From the sequence record OQ708376.1: a DNA stretch of 64,000 bases. One strand, written 5' to 3'. This DNA comes from Escherichia phage vB_EcoM_CRJP21. This document shows, piece by piece, positions 14,797 through 25,585 of this stretch. The position numbers and the translations under genes are program-made. The notes beneath the pieces are model-generated. The model did no database searches. It had not been told where the DNA came from and worked only from the letters and a program-made list of their open reading frames with translations. Positions within the stretch are counted from its first letter, which is position 1, and every line of letters begins with the position of its first letter.

Positions 14797-15171
14797 ATGA
14801 GTATGTTAGAAATAATTGTTTCAAAAATTCTTATTCCATTTTGGAAACCAATTTCTTTTGTATTATTAATTGGCGGTTCAGCTTATGCTGGTTGGGAAGC
14901 TAATACTTATTACAGTGGATATCAACAAAGCATAGAGCAACAAATAGCTAAAAAAGTTGATACCGCCTTGGATAAAATGCAACAAGAAAATGCAAAAAAT
15001 TACCTTGAAACTAAAAAAATCATGGAAGATAATGCTAAAGTTATTGAAACAAAGGTTCCTTTTATTGTAGAACGTGAAGTTTATAAGAATGTATGTTTAG
15101 ATGAAGATGGTGTAAAAGTACTGAATGAACTAAAACAAAATTCTCAAGCTGCGAGGAATAAATTCAAATGA
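14797..15171 (+). CDS. i-spanin candidate (inner-membrane spanin)
   Basis: N-terminal TM segment then charged helical region; ATGA-coupled to a downstream lipoprotein ORF. Confidence 0.5.
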   Translation: MSMLEIIVSKILIPFWKPISFVLLIGGSAYAGWEANTYYSGYQQSIEQQIAKKVDTALDKMQQENAKNYLETKKIMEDNAKVIETKVPFIVEREVYKNVCLDEDGVKVLNELKQNSQAARNKFK

Positions 15172-15476
15172 AAAAATTATTAGTTCCGTTTATTTCTTTT
15201 TTAATTATAAGTGGATGTGCAGAACAAGTAAAACTACAATCCCCTACACCAATTAAACAAGAAATTCTGTTAGAAAGATGTGATGATGATACACCTCTAC
15301 CACAAAAAATTATGATTGACAAAAATGGTTTTAAAGGTTATGATGGTGCAGAAATTCTTAAAGTACTTACTCGTTGGGATGCAGTATACAACGAATGTGC
15401 TTTAAAACATGATGCATTAATTAAAACTATTCGTGATTTACAAGGTAAAGATATTAAAATCAATATCAAGGAATAA
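15168..15476 (+). CDS. o-spanin candidate (outer-membrane lipoprotein)
   Basis: signal peptide with lipobox LIISGC. Confidence 0.5.
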   Translation: MKKLLVPFISFLIISGCAEQVKLQSPTPIKQEILLERCDDDTPLPQKIMIDKNGFKGYDGAEILKVLTRWDAVYNECALKHDALIKTIRDLQGKDIKINIKE

Positions 15477-22736: not shown

Positions 22737-22868
22737 ATGAATGGACTAAAGAAATTTGGTAAAGATTTTCTAAAATGTATACGCTATACATATGATGCAA
22801 ACCCAGAAATGACTGCTATTGTGGGTGTGTTTATTACACTCGTTGTATTAAGCTTTATTGTGGTGTAA
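22737..22868 (+). CDS. 43-aa small membrane peptide (below track threshold)
   Basis: aaaggaaaa RBS then ATG; C-terminal hydrophobic stretch AIVGVFITLVVLSFIVV. Confidence 0.35.
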   Translation: MNGLKKFGKDFLKCIRYTYDANPEMTAIVGVFITLVVLSFIVV

Positions 22869-23082: not shown

Positions 23083-23493
23083 ATGATTGAAATGGAAGGA
23101 ACTCTGGTGTATGATCCAGACCGTGGCACTATGAAAAAGAAGAAGGACTTCTGGTTAGTACTGCAACTTCCATTACAGTTGGTTAGATACTACCAGTATT
23201 TCATCAGAACTGATTTACATATTGACGTTAAAGATCCTCAATGGGGAGCACATGTTAGTATAGTGCGTGGTGAAGTACCACCACATGAAGAGTTCTGGAA
23301 AAAATACGATGGAATGAAAGTAAAGATAAAGTTCAATCCTTGTATTGAGATAGTAAAAGATAAAAAGAATCCAGGTTCATTCTTTATCATTGAATTTGAA
23401 GATGATTTCATCACACACATTAGAAACGAACTAGGACTACCAACCAAGTACTTTAAATATCACATAACTGTAGGTAGAACCTACTACGATTAA
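23083..23493 (+). CDS. 2H phosphoesterase-superfamily protein (LigT-like; possible Acb1-like cyclic-nucleotide phosphodiesterase)
   Basis: two H-x-[ST]-x motifs, AHVSIV and YHITVG, about 70 residues apart in a 136-aa protein. Confidence 0.4.
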   Translation: MIEMEGTLVYDPDRGTMKKKKDFWLVLQLPLQLVRYYQYFIRTDLHIDVKDPQWGAHVSIVRGEVPPHEEFWKKYDGMKVKIKFNPCIEIVKDKKNPGSFFIIEFEDDFITHIRNELGLPTKYFKYHITVGRTYYD

Positions 23494-23517: not shown

Positions 23518-23545
23518 TTGTAATAAAATAAAAATATGCTATACT
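23518..23545 (+). promoter_or_regulatory. promoter candidate
   Basis: TTGTAA, 16-nt spacer, TG-c-TATACT. Confidence 0.4.
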
Positions 23546-23661
23546 ACTTAAACATTTGAAAAGAACGTTTTTGTACTGTAGAAAGTCCGATGAGGCTTTT
23601 GCAAATGGCCTCTTTGCCATCTTTGTGATTGCCCATCTTAACAATCAACAAAGGAGGCGTT

Positions 23662-24588
23662 TTGAAACAAGCGAAAAAAGCACTGAAAACTAAGACTACT
23701 TATGGTGTTCTAGTTTGCACAGTACTTGTCGCTGCGATTGGATTTTATGGTTTTTCTCAAAATGATCGTGTATCATCATCGGACGAAAGTCAGGTACACA
23801 ATTTAAAACCACAAGTTACGCAAATTCAAAAGCAGGAATTACCAAAGGTAGAAATATCAAAGGATGTTCCACGCGGCGAGAAGCATTATACGGTTCAACC
23901 TGGTGATAGTTATTATTCTATTGCTAAAAAGTTTAAACCTAAAAATGTACAACTTGAAGAGTATGTTATTTTGTTGAAAAATATCAATTTAAATGCTACT
24001 CTTCATACTTCTCAGGGTATCTTTATCCCAACAAAAGAGGATTTGAAGAACGTATTGTTACCAGATGTGACTGTACTGTTTGATTATAATGATCCAGAAA
24101 TTGTCAATCACATCAAAGAAGCTGAAGGTTCAATTGAATTTCAGTCCAAGAACAAACGCCGTTTACTTGGTGGGAAAGTCGGAGTTCCTTTCCACAATTC
24201 TAAATTTCATCCCTACAAGGACATGAAAGGTAATTATACAATAGGTTATGGGCATTATTTGGGTAGAAAAGAATCTGATGCGATTAAGTACAGAAACGGT
24301 ATTACCAAAGCTCAAGCCAATAAACTTTTAATGCAAGATATGAAAAGAACATATAATGACTTTTTATTATTGATGCAGAAAAAAGAAGCAGTAAATCTGA
24401 CCAAAGAACAACAACGTATTCTTTATGAAATGTCCTATACAATGGGTGTTGATAAATTAGCAACGTTTAATAAACTTTGGAAAAGTGTGAAAAATGATAA
24501 CCCTAAGAAATTTAAAAAAGAAATTATGAATTCCTTATGGTATCGTCAAGTTACAAACCGAGCAGATTTGTTGTTAAGTTCACTCTAA
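23662..24588 (+). CDS. membrane-anchored LysM + T4-lysozyme-like muramidase (endolysin candidate)
   Basis: TM segment, LysM block YTVQPGDSYYSIAKKF, lysozyme block GNYTIGYGHYLG; TTG at 23662 after AAGGAGG (alternative TTG 23629). Confidence 0.6.
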   Translation: MKQAKKALKTKTTYGVLVCTVLVAAIGFYGFSQNDRVSSSDESQVHNLKPQVTQIQKQELPKVEISKDVPRGEKHYTVQPGDSYYSIAKKFKPKNVQLEEYVILLKNINLNATLHTSQGIFIPTKEDLKNVLLPDVTVLFDYNDPEIVNHIKEAEGSIEFQSKNKRRLLGGKVGVPFHNSKFHPYKDMKGNYTIGYGHYLGRKESDAIKYRNGITKAQANKLLMQDMKRTYNDFLLLMQKKEAVNLTKEQQRILYEMSYTMGVDKLATFNKLWKSVKNDNPKKFKKEIMNSLWYRQVTNRADLLLSSL

Positions 24589-24604: not shown

Positions 24605-24937
24605 ATGCTAAAATTAAATATTCAAGGTAATGTTGATTTTACTACAGCAATTCAAGATGCAATTTACGATGGTGCTAAATGTCTTGAAAAGTTCCGTACT
24701 TCAACTGTAATGGATATTGAAGTTCATGTGAAGAAAGAGCATAAGTCTCAATACTCTGTGACTATAACATCAGGTAGTAAATCAGTTACTGCCGATGCAG
24801 CAGATTTATACAAAGCAATTGGTGATTCATTTGAAAAAATGGAAACTGTATTCAGTAAAGACAAAAGCATTAAATTACACCGCCGAAACCATCCAGAACA
24901 CCCAGTTCTTAATGATTTGACAGAAAACGAAGAGTAA
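24605..24937 (+). CDS. hpf: ribosome hibernation promoting factor (HPF/RaiA family)
   Basis: MLKLNIQGNVDFTTAIQDAI ... ADLYKAIGDSFEKME ... KDKSIK aligns with E. coli HPF along its length. Confidence 0.65.
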   Translation: MLKLNIQGNVDFTTAIQDAIYDGAKCLEKFRTSTVMDIEVHVKKEHKSQYSVTITSGSKSVTADAADLYKAIGDSFEKMETVFSKDKSIKLHRRNHPEHPVLNDLTENEE

Positions 24938-24948
24938 TATATACTAAA

Positions 24949-24976
24949 GGGACAGATTAATTCTGTCCCTTTTCTT
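24949..24976 (+). terminator. intrinsic terminator
   Basis: gggacaga-ttaat-tctgtccc plus ttttctt. Confidence 0.7.
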
Positions 24977-25399: not shown

Positions 25400-25585
25400 A
25401 TGGAATATACAATATGTATAGTTATATGTATCATATCCTTACTAGTCGGGGTTGGTGTGATGATTTATTGTGATGCAGAACCCAGTACAGAAACAGGAAC
25501 AACTATTGAACTTAAGCCTGGTATTAAGGTAAATGATTCATATTGTTACGATCCACATAGTAATAAGTATGTGATTTGTATATGA
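25400..25585 (+). CDS. small membrane protein
   Basis: 61 aa with N-terminal hydrophobic segment. Confidence 0.4.
   Translation: MEYTICIVICIISLLVGVGVMIYCDAEPSTETGTTIELKPGIKVNDSYCYDPHSNKYVICI

What the first reader, a model, noticed from the sequence alone, without database searches (positions are those of the whole stretch)
23629..24588. Membrane-anchored LysM-lysozyme with a non-ATG start, separate from the spanins
Seen: N-terminal hydrophobic segment, a LysM block, and a T4-lysozyme-like catalytic region (YKDMKGNYTIGYGHYLG); the only start options are TTG 23629 or TTG 23662, the latter 4 nt after AAGGAGG. The spanin pair is 8 kb away at 14797-15476 and no holin is evident nearby. Inference: a signal-anchor-release-type endolysin or a membrane-tethered muramidase; lysis genes are dispersed.
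Basis: partly seen in the sequence, partly recalled or inferred. Interest (0 to 1): 0.4.

Follow-up and report, generated by a model that had tools for sequence, protein, structure and literature searches.

The report
Known jumbo-phage membrane-anchored LysM lysozyme
This gene is the already published, membrane-anchored LysM–lysozyme thought to be the cell-bursting enzyme of Rak2-like giant coliphages; what looks new is a conserved structured RNA leader and a weak start codon in front of it.

Summary
Window 23662-24588 (+) encodes a 308-aa, 35.5-kDa protein with five parts:
- a basic N-terminus;
- one hydrophobic segment;
- a roughly 40-aa linker;
- a complete LysM fold;
- a T4-type (GH24) lysozyme with invariant Glu155, Asp187 and Thr193.

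The window comes from an Asteriusvirus, a Rak2-like jumbo coliphage. The protein is 99.7-100% identical to 121Q gp532, PBECO4 and slurp01. Buttimer et al. 2017 already described this orthologue group as the predicted endolysin, with a transmembrane, LysM-like and lysozyme architecture and a possible SAR (signal-anchor-release) mechanism.

The start codon is TTG 23662, not 23629. A TTG or GTG start is kept across most genera examined, and only the RaK2 lineage has ATG. The orthologue was reported as not detected in phAPEC6 virions. The spanin pair at 14797-15476 is real and already catalogued.

Classic SAR membership is not supported. The N-terminus carries five lysines, and about 108 residues separate the anchor from the catalytic domain. 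Whether the protein is released, cleaved or stays tethered remains untested.

One feature looks new. A single-copy, roughly 70-nt leader (23549-23618) with covarying hairpins lies only upstream of this gene and matches no Rfam family. Its function is unknown. Occlusion of the ribosome-binding site is not above chance in this phage's lineage.

As given, the finding is ordinary and already known.

The parts
23518..23545 (+). Sigma-70-like promoter with an extended -10 element (TTGTAA, 16-nt spacer, TGcTATACT). The inferred transcription start is near 23552.
   Evidence: Consensus scan; not above chance on its own. TGCTATACT or TGCTATAAT is kept at this position in Turkey5, A4 and CMSTMSU. RaK2 has TTGACA-17-TAAAAT, and EJP2 and Hallingskeid have TTGACA-17-TAGACT, directly upstream of the conserved leader core. 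The transcription start is inferred, not mapped.
23549..23618 (+). Conserved leader element. It holds the core GTAGAAAGTCC (23578-23588) and hairpin H2, GAGGC-TTTTGCAAATG-GCCTC (23592-23612). The upstream hairpin H1 is degenerate in this lineage.
   Evidence: Covariance model R1 gives one significant hit in the 64-kb window (46.9 bits, E 2e-10; this sequence was in the training set), and the next hits have E 0.3-0.4. The motif occurs once in the window. The full motif was found only upstream of this gene, in viral contigs and metagenomes, and never in bacterial genomes. Covariation is supported. No Rfam match.
23651..23657 (+). Shine-Dalgarno sequence AAGGAGG, 4 nt upstream of the start codon.
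   Evidence: The same arrangement (strong Shine-Dalgarno, 4-nt spacer, TTG or GTG) occurs in other genera.
23662..24588 (+). Coding sequence of 308 aa (35.5 kDa, pI 9.6) with a TTG start: the signal-anchored LysM-GH24 muramidase, orthologue of 121Q gp532, CBB_187, GAP32 gp180 and RaK2 ORF029.
   Evidence: The start position is fixed by homologues in which the frame opens only 9 nt upstream of the TTG or GTG.
23662..23694 (+). Cytoplasmic N-terminus MKQAKKALKTK (five Lys).
   Evidence: By the positive-inside rule (established knowledge) this gives an N-in topology; the 15 residues after the hydrophobic segment have a net charge of -2.
23695..23757 (+). Hydrophobic segment TTYGVLVCTVLVAAIGFYGFS (aa 12-32). 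It could be a signal anchor, a SAR-like segment or a signal peptide; this is unresolved.
   Evidence: Present in all 68 aligned homologues, with A24, A25 and G30 nearly invariant. Crude Hessa sum +1.1 kcal/mol and 43% Gly/Ala/Ser/Thr. The GAP32 record notes one transmembrane domain, and the CBB paper describes an N-terminal transmembrane domain, with TMHMM listed among its methods.
23758..23877 (+). Low-confidence, probably disordered periplasmic linker (aa 33-72). It contains the conserved motif PQVTQIQKQ (QIQKQ at 23821-23835).
   Evidence: pLDDT is about 30. I55 is invariant and Q56 and K57 are nearly invariant among 68 homologues.
23878..24030 (+). LysM peptidoglycan-binding domain (aa 73-123).
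   Evidence: Pfam LysM, 22.5 bits against a 20.9-bit cutoff, over a partial stretch. The AlphaFold2 model shows strand 75-77, helix 84-91, helix 98-108 and strand 119-121, with pLDDT around 76-92.
24082..24585 (+). GH24 (T4-type) lysozyme domain (aa 141-308). Catalytic residues: E155 (24124-24126), D187 (24220-24222) and T193 (24238-24240).
   Evidence: Pfam PF00959. Foldseek matches T4 lysozyme (E about 1e-6, target TM-score 0.64). A profile search of solved structures aligns D187 and T193 with T4 lysozyme D20 and T26. E155, G156, D187 and T193 are invariant. The domain is 36% identical, including IKEAEG against IKEFEG, to 121Q gp586. That protein is the orthologue of LysUE1, which is reported to be active.
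24605..24937 (+). HPF/RaiA (ribosomal S30AE) gene, probably co-transcribed with the lysozyme gene.
   Evidence: Pfam PF02482, E 2.3e-9. There is a 16-nt gap and no terminator between the two genes. The same gene order is seen in CBB, Yen9-04, XaC1, XbC2, Turkey5 and A4, and in GAP32 with HNH genes inserted between them.
24946..24972 (+). Terminator-like hairpin (AAAGGGACAGA...TCTGTCCCTTT followed by TTCTT) that closes the two-gene unit.
   Evidence: vB_EcoM_G17 has a terminator annotated at the equivalent position.
14797..15171 (+). i-spanin (124 aa).
   Evidence: PHROG 1152, 'Rz-like spanin', E 6.6e-29. PBECO4 and 121Q spanins are catalogued in PMC6139136.
15168..15476 (+). o-spanin (102 aa) with a lipobox (LIISG|C). 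It overlaps the i-spanin gene by 4 nt.
   Evidence: plus a weak Pfam LysC/Rz1-like match. Listed in PMC6139136.
22737..22868 (+). 43-aa protein with a C-terminal hydrophobic segment, three genes upstream. It is a possible accessory protein, and its membership of this system is uncertain.
   Evidence: Similar-sized proteins sharing a '..T(S/Y)x(D/A)xNP..T' pattern followed by a C-terminal hydrophobic stretch lie two to three genes upstream of the lysozyme gene in CBB, GAP32 and XaC1 (21-33% identity). PHROG 37784, function unknown.

Best explanation
Window 23662-24588 encodes the orthologue of 121Q gp532, CBB_187 and RaK2 ORF029, a core protein of Rak2-like jumbo phages.

Proposed mechanism:
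1. Translation starts at TTG 23662.
2. The lysine-rich N-terminus and the single hydrophobic segment send the protein through Sec with an N-in/C-out topology.
3. The roughly 40-residue linker, the LysM peptidoglycan-binding domain and the T4-type GH24 muramidase end up in the periplasm.
4. There the protein most likely acts as the phage's endolysin, degrading murein at the end of infection. The two-component spanin encoded 8 kb upstream then disrupts the outer membrane.

The catalytic domain is separated from the anchor by about 108 residues. Restraint before lysis therefore cannot work by SAR-style misfolding. It more plausibly depends on low, controlled synthesis (non-ATG start, dedicated structured leader) and on tethering at a distance from the wall, followed by release or membrane depolarisation.

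Shown here: domain content, catalytic residues, conservation, start codon, gene context, and the existence and covariation of the leader. Absence from virions is taken from the literature. Inferred: export topology, the role in lysis, and any regulatory role of the leader and the TTG start.
For: Identity:
- 99.7-100% amino-acid identity to proteins of Asteriusvirus phages annotated as lysozyme or LysM-domain protein.
- Full-length match to PHROG 15410, E 3e-173.
- The transmembrane + linker + LysM half occurs once per genome, in 70 phage records drawn from Rak2-like genera.

Enzyme:
- PF00959 and LysM hits, a confident AlphaFold2 model, and a T4-lysozyme fold.
- E155, G156, D187 and T193 are invariant in 68 homologues that diverge down to 46% identity.
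- The paralogue gp586 (= LysUE1) shares the motifs and is reported to be muralytic.

Export:
- The hydrophobic segment is present in every aligned homologue.
- Five Lys precede it and an acidic stretch follows it.

Not structural:
- The phAPEC6 paper reports its orthologue gp293 as not detected by virion mass spectrometry, whereas the hub lysozyme gp241 was.
- CBB_187 is mentioned only in the cell-wall-enzyme section of the CBB paper's main text, not in its virion protein table.

Toxicity and lysis context:
- The CBB authors report that induction of CBB_187 inhibits E. coli growth, as data not shown.
- RaK2 is reported to lack the T4 holin and antiholin.
- The spanins are present.

Start codon:
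- In Mimasvirus, Eneladusvirus, Serratia BF, Turkey5, A4 and EJP2 the frame opens a few codons (9-15 nt) upstream, or holds no other start codon, so TTG or GTG is the only option.

Leader.
Against: - No experiment ties this protein to lysis. The phage carries a second, soluble 162-aa GH24 lysozyme (121Q gp586). The CBB paper's wording suggests its homologue CBB_239 was not found in virions, and the protein is active in vitro, so it could be the real endolysin.
- The promoters directly upstream look sigma-70-like, which suggests early rather than late transcription. No transcript data exist for this phage group.
- No holin, pinholin or releasin partner was identified.
- Topology and membrane retention were not predicted with a dedicated tool. 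The nearly invariant Ala24-Ala25 fits the -3/-1 rule for signal peptidase I.
- In the window's own lineage the ribosome-binding site is no more occluded than with shuffled leaders (0.76 against 0.70; 70 of 200 shuffles as high), and in Turkey5 it is open. Within the window this gene ranks 15th of 78 genes.
- TTG starts are annotated for 5 of 30 neighbouring 121Q genes, so a TTG by itself is not rare here.
Confidence: 0.6

Rival explanations
1. The true endolysin is the soluble 162-aa T4-type lysozyme (121Q gp586, LysUE1, CBB_239). The membrane-anchored LysM-lysozyme would then do something else: for example, local murein remodelling during the long jumbo-phage cycle, or an early envelope function. 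It would be transcribed from sigma-70-type promoters together with the ribosome hibernation factor.
For: - gp586 is T4-lysozyme-sized, has the same catalytic motifs, and its orthologue is reported to lyse cells in vitro in the presence of EDTA.
- Sigma-70 consensus-like promoters sit immediately upstream of the anchored enzyme's leader in RaK2, EJP2 and Hallingskeid.
- The gene lies among metabolic and translation-related genes (HPF, CCA-adding enzyme, Nudix), not in a late or structural block.
Against: - gp586 sits inside the baseplate operon, between the gp25-like and gp5-like hub genes. That fits an assembly or ejection role at least as well.
- A cytoplasmic endolysin needs a large-hole holin, and none is known in these phages; RaK2 is reported to lack T and RI.
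- The anchored enzyme is conserved across the Rak2-like genera examined, once per genome, and is reported to be toxic on induction.
- T4 gene e is also transcribed early yet acts late (PMC3014915), so early-type promoters do not exclude a lysis role.
Confidence: 0.2
2. The hydrophobic segment is a cleavable Sec signal peptide, cut after Ala24-Ala25 or after Ser32. The mature enzyme would be a soluble periplasmic LysM-lysozyme, not membrane-tethered, and its activity would be controlled only by how much is made and when.
For: - The segment has a basic n-region, a 10-12-residue hydrophobic core (YGVLVCTVLV) and then V-A-A, which fits the -3/-1 rule. A24 and A25 are nearly invariant.
- In ten homologues the uncharged run is only 12-14 residues, in most because an acidic residue replaces Gly27. 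That is short for a membrane span.
Against: - The uncharged run is 21 residues in this phage, with a family median of 19. That is long for a signal peptide.
- A hydrophobic IGFYGF would follow the putative cleavage site.
- The GAP32 record notes one transmembrane domain, and the CBB paper describes an N-terminal transmembrane domain.
- SignalP, DeepTMHMM and similar tools could not be run here, so this alternative remains open.
Confidence: 0.15
3. [quoted passage not shown]
For: - Annotations in vB_EcoM_G17, Muenster and SE_PL.
- The GH24 domain's second-best PHROG match is a baseplate-hub lysozyme family (E 2.7e-20).
Against: - Reported as not detected in phAPEC6 virions, and not mentioned among CBB virion proteins.
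- It has no gp5 OB-fold or beta-helix domains.
- It lies outside the structural gene clusters.
- It has an N-terminal export signal.
- The real hub lysozyme is a separate 96-kDa protein.
- The labels stem from domain-level similarity only.
Confidence: 0.03

Closest known systems
121Q gp532 (YP_009102119), PBECO4, phAPEC6 gp293, CBB_187, GAP32 gp180 and RaK2 ORF029 ('gp506' in Buttimer et al. 2017): the predicted endolysin of Rak2-like jumbo phages
   Same: This is the same orthologue group. Identity is 99.7-100% to the Asteriusvirus proteins and 46-55% to those of Mimasvirus and Alcyoneusvirus. The architecture (transmembrane segment, LysM-like domain, lysozyme), the length, the neighbouring HPF gene and the annotated TTG start are the same.
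   Different: Nothing of substance differs. Added here: the non-ATG start is conserved across genera; the LysM fold is complete; the catalytic spacing is E-X31-D-X5-T; and a dedicated, conserved leader RNA element precedes the gene.
SAR (signal-anchor-release) endolysins of the GH24 'true lysozyme' type: P1 Lyz, phage 21 R21, Mu gp22 and phiKMV gp45
   Same: All have an N-terminal hydrophobic segment that would export a T4-type muramidase through Sec without a holin. The crude hydrophobicity of the segment is marginal (+1.1 kcal/mol), close to the values obtained for P1 Lyz and R21 sequences recalled from memory.
   Different: - Five N-terminal lysines, against the usual 1-3. Extra basic residues lock SAR domains in the membrane (PMC9239132).
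- About 108 residues (linker, LysM, spacer) lie between the anchor and the catalytic domain, so inactivation by tether-dependent misfolding cannot apply.
- The spacing is E-X31-D instead of E-X8-D/C.
- No adjacent pinholin or releasin.
- Release from the membrane has not been tested.
T4 lysozyme (gene e product) and its translational control
   Same: The fold and the Glu/Asp/Thr catalytic residues are shared. Both phages scatter their lysis genes. In Mimasvirus and Eneladusvirus relatives the Shine-Dalgarno sequence and start codon lie in a long hairpin. That resembles the inhibitory hairpin of T4 e early transcripts (PMC3014915).
   Different: - T4 lysozyme is a soluble 164-aa cytoplasmic enzyme that depends on holin T. 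This protein has an export anchor and a LysM domain.
- No T4-type late promoter (TATAAATA or ATAAATA) lies within the 5' strand of the hairpin.
- In the window's lineage, occlusion of the ribosome-binding site is not above chance.
Modular endolysins of phages infecting Gram-negative bacteria that carry a cell-wall-binding domain (phiKZ gp144/KZ144, EL gp188)
   Same: A peptidoglycan-binding module is fused N-terminally to the catalytic domain, which is unusual for phages of Gram-negative hosts (noted in PMC5259590).
   Different: The binding domain is of a different type (PG_binding_1 rather than LysM). The catalytic class differs (transglycosylase). Those enzymes have no membrane anchor.

Membership tests
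GH24 / T4-type phage lysozyme (Pfam PF00959) | A significant match to the family profile. | tested here: met
   45.1 bits against a 22.3-bit cutoff, E 1.5e-11, aa 182-289. A profile of the family matches T4 lysozyme chains at E about 1e-13.
GH24 / T4-type phage lysozyme (Pfam PF00959) | The T4-lysozyme fold. | tested here: met
   AlphaFold2 pLDDT is 82-95 over the domain. The top Foldseek hits are T4 lysozyme, probability 1.00, target TM-score about 0.64.
GH24 / T4-type phage lysozyme (Pfam PF00959) | The catalytic triad Glu, Asp (or Cys) and Thr is present. | tested here: met
   E155, D187 and T193 are invariant in 68 homologues. D187 and T193 align with T4 lysozyme D20 and T26. E155 (IKEAEG) aligns with IKEFEG of the reportedly active paralogue gp586.
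GH24 / T4-type phage lysozyme (Pfam PF00959) | The canonical spacing E-X8-D/C-X5-T. | tested here: not met
   The spacing is E-X31-D-X5-T. A conserved 23-residue insertion (Q161, R166, L168, G171, F182 and P184 invariant) lies between Glu and Asp. Paralogue gp586 has E-X21-D.
GH24 / T4-type phage lysozyme (Pfam PF00959) | Muramidase activity. | not testable with these tools
   The only indirect evidence is the CBB authors' remark that induction inhibits growth, given as data not shown.
LysM domain (Pfam PF01476) | A profile match above the curated cutoff. | tested here: met
   22.5 bits against 20.9, but only model positions 1-17 of 43 are matched.
LysM domain (Pfam PF01476) | The beta-alpha-alpha-beta fold. 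| tested here: met
   The AlphaFold2 model shows strand 75-77, helix 84-91, helix 98-108 and strand 119-121, with pLDDT around 76-92.
SAR (signal-anchor-release) endolysin | An N-terminal transmembrane segment made mostly of weakly hydrophobic residues (Gly, Ala, Ser, Thr about half or more). | tested here: inconclusive
   43% Gly/Ala/Ser/Thr in a 21-residue uncharged run (family median 37%). The crude Hessa sum is +1.1 kcal/mol. Reference SAR sequences recalled from memory give 55-65% and +0.5 to +0.8; lambda Rz gives 30% and -2.5.
SAR (signal-anchor-release) endolysin | A short cytoplasmic N-terminus with few (1-3) basic residues. | tested here: not met
   Five Lys in MKQAKKALKTK. The criterion, and the locking effect of added basic residues, come from PMC9239132.
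SAR (signal-anchor-release) endolysin | The catalytic domain directly follows the SAR segment, and the tethered form is inactive until the segment leaves the bilayer and the enzyme refolds. | tested here: not met
   About 108 residues (40-aa low-confidence linker, 51-aa LysM, 17-aa spacer) separate the segment from the GH24 domain. Inactivity of the tethered form was not testable.
SAR (signal-anchor-release) endolysin | Release from the inner membrane on depolarisation or by a pinholin (the definitive test according to PMC9239132). | not testable with these tools
   Needs fractionation or lysis assays.
SAR (signal-anchor-release) endolysin | A partner pinholin, holin or releasin gene. | tested here: inconclusive
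   None is annotated within 6 kb either side in 121Q or 11 kb either side in fEgEco12. The small membrane proteins at 22737-22868 and 25400-25585 match only PHROGs of unknown function.
Two-component spanin (for 14797-15476) | An i-spanin with an N-terminal transmembrane segment, followed by an o-spanin lipoprotein with a lipobox. | tested here: met
   PHROG 'Rz-like spanin', E 6.6e-29. The o-spanin begins MKKLLVPFISFLIISGC. PBECO4 and 121Q are listed as a spanin family in PMC6139136.
T4 gene e-type translational occlusion | The Shine-Dalgarno sequence and start codon are sequestered in a helix more than expected by chance. | tested here: not met
   Window: P(paired) 0.76 against 0.70 for shuffled leaders (70 of 200 as high). 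Turkey5: 0.22. The feature is met only in Yen9-04, Serratia BF and CBB (1-16 of 200). In the window this gene ranks 15th of 78 genes.
T4 gene e-type translational occlusion | A late promoter inside the 5' strand of the inhibitory helix. | tested here: not met
   No TATAAATA or ATAAATA motif is visible at that position in the leader sequences printed.
Any Rfam RNA family (for the leader) | A covariance-model match. | tested here: not met
   The best hits have E 2-8 and lie far below the gathering scores.

The most novel reading that the evidence does not exclude
The roughly 70-nt leader (core GUAGAAAGUCC plus a covarying 10-bp hairpin capped in most lineages by a GNRA-type GCAA loop) is a previously undescribed cis-regulatory RNA. 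It is single-copy per genome, found only in front of this gene, and conserved across several genera while the protein has diverged to about 50% identity. Under this reading it acts together with the conserved non-AUG start, by binding a phage or host factor, to gate translation of the anchored endolysin-HPF operon. Lysis timing in these apparently holin-less jumbo phages would then be set post-transcriptionally rather than by a holin clock.
Probability: 0.2. Interest if true: 0.6.

Novelty: already known. Interest (0 to 1): 0.3.

Why it matters
As submitted, the finding repeats a published in-silico description of a protein deposited in dozens of phage genomes, so it adds little.

Two points could still matter:
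- No lysis gene of the Rak2-like jumbo phages has been tested genetically. These phages carry three GH24 paralogues and no recognised holin, so which enzyme lyses the cell, and what times it, remain open. An endolysin with a membrane anchor, a long linker and a LysM domain would work differently from every characterised SAR endolysin.
- The gene-specific conserved leader and the retained weak start codon give a concrete, testable handle on how a potentially lethal exported muramidase is kept in check.

There is also a practical point. Several GenBank records mislabel this gene as a tail lysozyme or truncate its N-terminus: XaC1 is annotated from a downstream ATG, and CMSTMSU carries a frameshift.

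Tried and rejected
- **Start at TTG 23629.** Rejected. The upstream extension simply translates the Shine-Dalgarno region (…NKGGV). In many homologues a stop codon lies 9 nt upstream of the aligned TTG or GTG.
- **Conserved motif as a general phage promoter.** Rejected. There is one exact copy in 64 kb, matches with up to 2 mismatches are at chance level (9 against 5.7 expected), and there is one strict match per Rak2-like contig.
- **Motif borrowed from bacteria.** Rejected. The 61 matches in bacterial genomes are scattered across unrelated taxa, as chance would give, and none carries the full motif.
- **Known RNA family.** No Rfam hit.
- **Second copy of the leader near the other lysozyme genes or elsewhere in the window.** The covariance model found none.
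- **T4 e-like occlusion of the ribosome-binding site as a universal mechanism.** Not supported in the window's lineage after a shuffle control and a within-window comparison. My first impression, from minimum-free-energy folds, was too optimistic. Shuffled AT-rich leaders already pair the Shine-Dalgarno sequence 50-70% of the time.
- **Intrinsic terminator at 23605-23620.** It is part of hairpin H2's 3' arm, and no comparable T-run follows it in other lineages.
- **MotA-box or middle-promoter reading of GGCTTTG.** The position of the -10 element is inconsistent between lineages.
- **Link to a Ro60/TROVE-type RNA-binding protein.** Such a gene lies three to four genes upstream in Mimasvirus and Eneladusvirus, but none is annotated in the 121Q stretch upstream of gp532.
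- **PA5oct RNA-seq and proteome data.** Not usable. The paper's table of cell-wall-degrading proteins lists nothing with this architecture.
- **Transcriptome data for Asteriusvirus.** None found.
- **Formal pair count for hairpin H1 on a hand-made alignment.** Abandoned in favour of the count on the MAFFT alignment.
Full report
**What is there**

Its sequence reads as described: AAGGAGG at 23651-23657, four bases, then TTG at 23662. The 308-aa product (35.5 kDa, pI 9.6) has these parts:
- a lysine-rich N-terminus, MKQAKKALKTK;
- a 21-residue uncharged segment, TTYGVLVCTVLVAAIGFYGFS;
- a 40-residue stretch that AlphaFold2 models with pLDDT of about 30;
- a LysM domain (aa 73-123);
- a short spacer;
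- a T4-type lysozyme domain (aa 141-308).

Pfam reports Phage_lysozyme (E 1.5e-11) and LysM (22.5 bits against a 20.9-bit cutoff, partial). The AlphaFold2 model built on 68 homologues is confident for residues 73-308 and shows the beta-alpha-alpha-beta LysM topology. Foldseek's best solved-structure matches are T4 lysozyme. A family profile aligns D187 and T193 with T4 lysozyme D20 and T26.

The catalytic glutamate is E155, in IKEAEG. It is invariant and aligns with IKEFEG of the paralogue 121Q gp586. The Glu-Asp spacing is 31 residues, not the canonical 8, because of a conserved insertion.

**Where the window comes from, and what is already known**

The protein is 100% identical to proteins of Escherichia phages slurp01, UB, G17 and SP27, and 99.7% identical to 121Q gp532 and PBECO4. 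The window is therefore an Asteriusvirus, a Rak2-like jumbo myovirus with a genome of about 350 kb.

RefSeq and GenBank annotate the same 927-nt CDS with the TTG start, as 'LysM peptidoglycan-binding domain-containing protein' or 'lysozyme'. Buttimer et al. 2017 (PMC5259590) describe this orthologue group (CBB_187, GAP32 gp180, 121Q gp532, RaK2 'gp506'):
- it is the predicted endolysin;
- it has an N-terminal transmembrane domain, a LysM-like domain and a lysozyme domain;
- the wall-binding domain is unusual for a phage of Gram-negative hosts;
- P1 Lyz-type signal-arrest export may apply;
- induction inhibited E. coli growth.

The RaK2 paper lists three lysozymes (ORF029, ORF073, ORF078) and reports that T4 holin T and antiholin RI are absent. 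The spanin pair at 14797-15476 is also real and catalogued.

**The start codon**

TTG 23662 is the start. The upstream TTG 23629 would only add a translation of the Shine-Dalgarno region.

In Mimasvirus (CBB, GAP32), Eneladusvirus (Yen9-04), Serratia phage BF, several uncultured relatives, Turkey5 and A4, the reading frame opens 9 nt upstream of an aligned TTG, or contains no other start codon (…TAA GGA GGA ATT TTG). That TTG is therefore the only possible start. One lineage (EJP2, Hallingskeid, L009-L013) has GTG at the same place. XaC1 very probably also starts at a GTG that follows GGAGG at the same 4-nt spacing, although it is annotated from a downstream ATG that truncates the hydrophobic segment. 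Only the RaK2 lineage has ATG.

A weak start codon behind a strong, closely spaced Shine-Dalgarno sequence is therefore retained while the protein diverges to about 50% identity. A TTG alone is not rare in this genome's annotation: 5 of 30 neighbouring 121Q genes carry one.

**Is it a virion protein?**

Several records call it a 'tail lysozyme'. That label rests on domain similarity only.
- The phAPEC6 paper reports its orthologue gp293 as not detected by virion mass spectrometry, while the 96-kDa hub lysozyme gp241 was.
- CBB_187 is mentioned only in the cell-wall-enzyme section of the CBB paper's main text, not in its virion protein table.
- The gene lies among HPF, CCA-adding enzyme and Nudix genes, not in a structural block.

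**Is it a SAR endolysin?**

The criteria come from the Mu lysis paper (PMC9239132).
- *Composition of the segment.* It is 43% Gly/Ala/Ser/Thr, and a crude Hessa-scale sum gives +1.1 kcal/mol. That is near the values I obtain for P1 Lyz and R21 sequences recalled from memory, and well above lambda Rz. This criterion is inconclusive.
- *Basic residues.* The cytoplasmic N-terminus has five lysines, where SAR endolysins usually have one to three. Added basic residues are reported to lock SAR domains in the bilayer.
- *Distance to the catalytic domain.* About 108 residues separate the segment from the catalytic domain. The hallmark of SAR endolysins is inactivity of the tethered form through misfolding or a mis-paired active site, relieved when the segment leaves the membrane. 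That cannot apply here.
- *Partner gene.* No pinholin, holin or releasin is evident nearby.

I therefore do not file it as a SAR endolysin. It may still work like one in the looser sense of being Sec-exported, held at the membrane and later freed.

A cleavable signal peptide is a live alternative:
- Ala24-Ala25 is nearly invariant and fits the -3/-1 rule.
- In ten homologues the uncharged run is only 12-14 residues, in most because an acidic residue replaces Gly27.

The linker carries a conserved motif, PQVTQIQKQ, with I55 invariant and Q56 and K57 nearly so. No current explanation accounts for it; a processing or interaction site is possible.

**Which lysozyme is the endolysin?**

The main rival is the 162-aa soluble paralogue, 121Q gp586.
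- It is 36% identical over the catalytic domain.
- It is the orthologue of LysUE1, which was purified and reported to be active.
- The CBB paper's wording suggests that its homologue CBB_239 was not found in virions.
- It sits inside the baseplate operon, between the gp25-like and gp5-like hub genes.
- It would need a large-hole holin, and none is known in these phages.

I put 0.6 on the anchored enzyme being the lysis enzyme and 0.2 on the paralogue.

**Transcription unit**

The lysozyme gene is followed after 16 nt by an HPF/RaiA gene (Pfam PF02482, E 2.3e-9). A strong hairpin terminator follows at 24946-24972, and G17 has one annotated at the same place. The lysozyme-HPF order is conserved in Mimasvirus, Eneladusvirus, the Xanthomonas phages and Asteriusvirus.

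Upstream lies a 168-nt intergenic region with an extended -10 promoter-like site, TTGTAA-16-TGcTATACT at 23518-23545. In RaK2, EJP2 and Hallingskeid the equivalent position holds near-consensus sigma-70 promoters. These are consensus matches only, and no transcript data exist for this phage group.

**A conserved leader: the one feature that looks new**

Comparing upstream regions across genera revealed an element that is better conserved than the coding sequence. It has three parts:
- the core GTAGAAAGTCC (window 23578-23588);
- hairpin H2, whose 5' arm and loop are conserved (G.G.CUUUGU-GCAA) and whose 3' arm varies while staying complementary;
- in most lineages, a hairpin H1 immediately 5' of the core, whose arms differ completely between lineages (TAGTA/TACTA, TAGTC/GACTA, TTAACTC/GAGTTAA, GGAGCG/CGCTCC, CAGTATT/AATACTG, and others).

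Covariation evidence:
- On an unedited MAFFT alignment of 20 sequences, 83% of cells pair, against 42-53% when the partners are slid. Seven pairs change on both sides. No shuffle out of 500 reaches the observed covariation score.
- On a hand-registered alignment of H2 alone, 94.5% of cells pair, with A-U, C-G and U-A alternating at one position and G-C and A-U at another. That alignment was fitted to the structure.
- The many G·U pairs indicate a sense-strand RNA rather than a DNA palindrome.

Whole-leader folding z-scores are -5.1 (CBB), -6.8 (L014), -5.5 (Yen9-04), -4.8 (RaK2), -3.9 (EJP2), -2.6 (window), -2.4 (L013) and -1.1 (Turkey5).

The element is specific to this gene:
- one exact core motif in the window;
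- one strict match per Rak2-like contig in the viral collection, the other matches being unrelated coding sequences;
- eleven full-motif instances in metagenomes, all directly upstream of this gene, and none in 185,579 bacterial genomes;
- one significant covariance-model hit in the window (23549-23618, 46.9 bits) and none near the other lysozyme genes;
- no Rfam family matches.

In the window's own lineage H1 is largely degenerate.

**What the leader does is not established**

My first hypothesis was T4 gene e-style occlusion of the ribosome-binding site (PMC3014915). In Mimasvirus and Eneladusvirus the Shine-Dalgarno sequence and the start codon do sit in a hairpin with a stem of roughly 13-20 pairs, and there the occlusion exceeds shuffled leaders (1-16 of 200 shuffles as high).

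The control fails for the window and its close relatives:
- The window gives 0.76 against 0.70 for shuffles, with 70 of 200 shuffles as high.
- A4 gives 0.64 against 0.70.
- Turkey5 gives 0.22, that is, an open site.
- Within the window this gene ranks 15th of 78 genes for Shine-Dalgarno pairing.
- No late promoter lies inside the hairpin.

The universal part (core plus H2) therefore has some other role. Candidates are a binding site for a phage or host factor, a processing or stability determinant, or a ligand-responsive element. I cannot tell which.

**Verdict**

As submitted, the finding is an already described and already annotated gene of a known phage group, and its scattered lysis genes are ordinary for T4-related phages.

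Residual interest lies in three places:
- the lysis mechanism of Rak2-like phages has not been tested;
- the anchor-linker-LysM-GH24 architecture departs from characterised SAR endolysins;
- a non-ATG start is conserved, together with a gene-specific structured leader that, as far as Rfam and my literature searches show, has not been described.

Noticed in passing
window 24605-24937: The phage encodes a ribosome hibernation factor (HPF/RaiA, S30AE family) immediately downstream of the lysozyme gene, probably in the same transcript. The pairing is conserved across Rak2-like genera. Why a lysis enzyme and a translation-silencing factor should be co-expressed is unexplained.
   Followed up: partly
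window 23821-23835 (aa 54-58, within PQVTQIQKQ): A short motif in the otherwise low-confidence periplasmic linker is almost invariant among 68 homologues (I55 invariant; Q56 and K57 at least 90%). It could be a processing or interaction site.
   Followed up: no
window 22737-22868: A 43-aa protein with a hydrophobic segment at its very C-terminus lies three genes upstream. Similar-sized proteins with a shared '..T(S/Y)x(D/A)xNP..T' pattern followed by a hydrophobic stretch sit two to three genes upstream of the lysozyme gene in CBB, GAP32 and XaC1. It might be an accessory or holin-like partner; it matches only a PHROG of unknown function.
   Followed up: partly
window 25400-25585: A 61-aa protein with an N-terminal hydrophobic segment (MEYTICIVICIISLLVGVGVMIY…) lies 0.8 kb downstream. 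It matches PHROG 4189, function unknown.
   Followed up: no
window 24917-24945: A near-consensus sigma-70 promoter-like site (TTGACA-17-TATACT, 11 of 12 positions) overlaps the end of the HPF gene and lies directly in front of the terminator hairpin at 24946-24972. A transcript started there would begin with that hairpin.
   Followed up: no
window 23083-23493: The upstream gene (121Q gp531) has a weak match to a 2H phosphoesterase domain (PF22547, 26.0 bits against a 27-bit cutoff). RaK2 shares this upstream gene, whereas Mimasvirus has a different one. The leader therefore travels with the lysozyme gene, not with its upstream neighbour.
   Followed up: partly
L063 (Xanthomonas phage XaC1) 1462-1516; L069 (phage CMSTMSU) about 556-604: There are annotation problems in public records. 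The XaC1 orthologue is annotated from a downstream ATG that cuts into the hydrophobic segment; a GTG at 1462, 4 nt after GGAGG, is the likely start. CMSTMSU has a frameshift at the start of the gene. fEgEco12 labels the spanins 'cell division protein FtsB' and 'lytic conversion lipoprotein'.
   Followed up: partly
L005/L006/L007 (CBB, GAP32, Yen9-04), about 190 nt upstream of the lysozyme start: A consensus sigma-70 promoter-like site (TTGACA-17-TAAAAT) is conserved inside the 3' end of the upstream coding gene in Mimasvirus and Eneladusvirus. In these genera the stop codon of that gene lies within the 5' arm of leader hairpin H1.
   Followed up: no
L220 20101-20865 (121Q gp584); L006 3403-4016 (GAP32 gp181 and gp182): HNH homing-endonuclease genes are inserted in two places: next to the baseplate lysozyme cluster in 121Q, and between the lysozyme and HPF genes in GAP32.
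   Followed up: no
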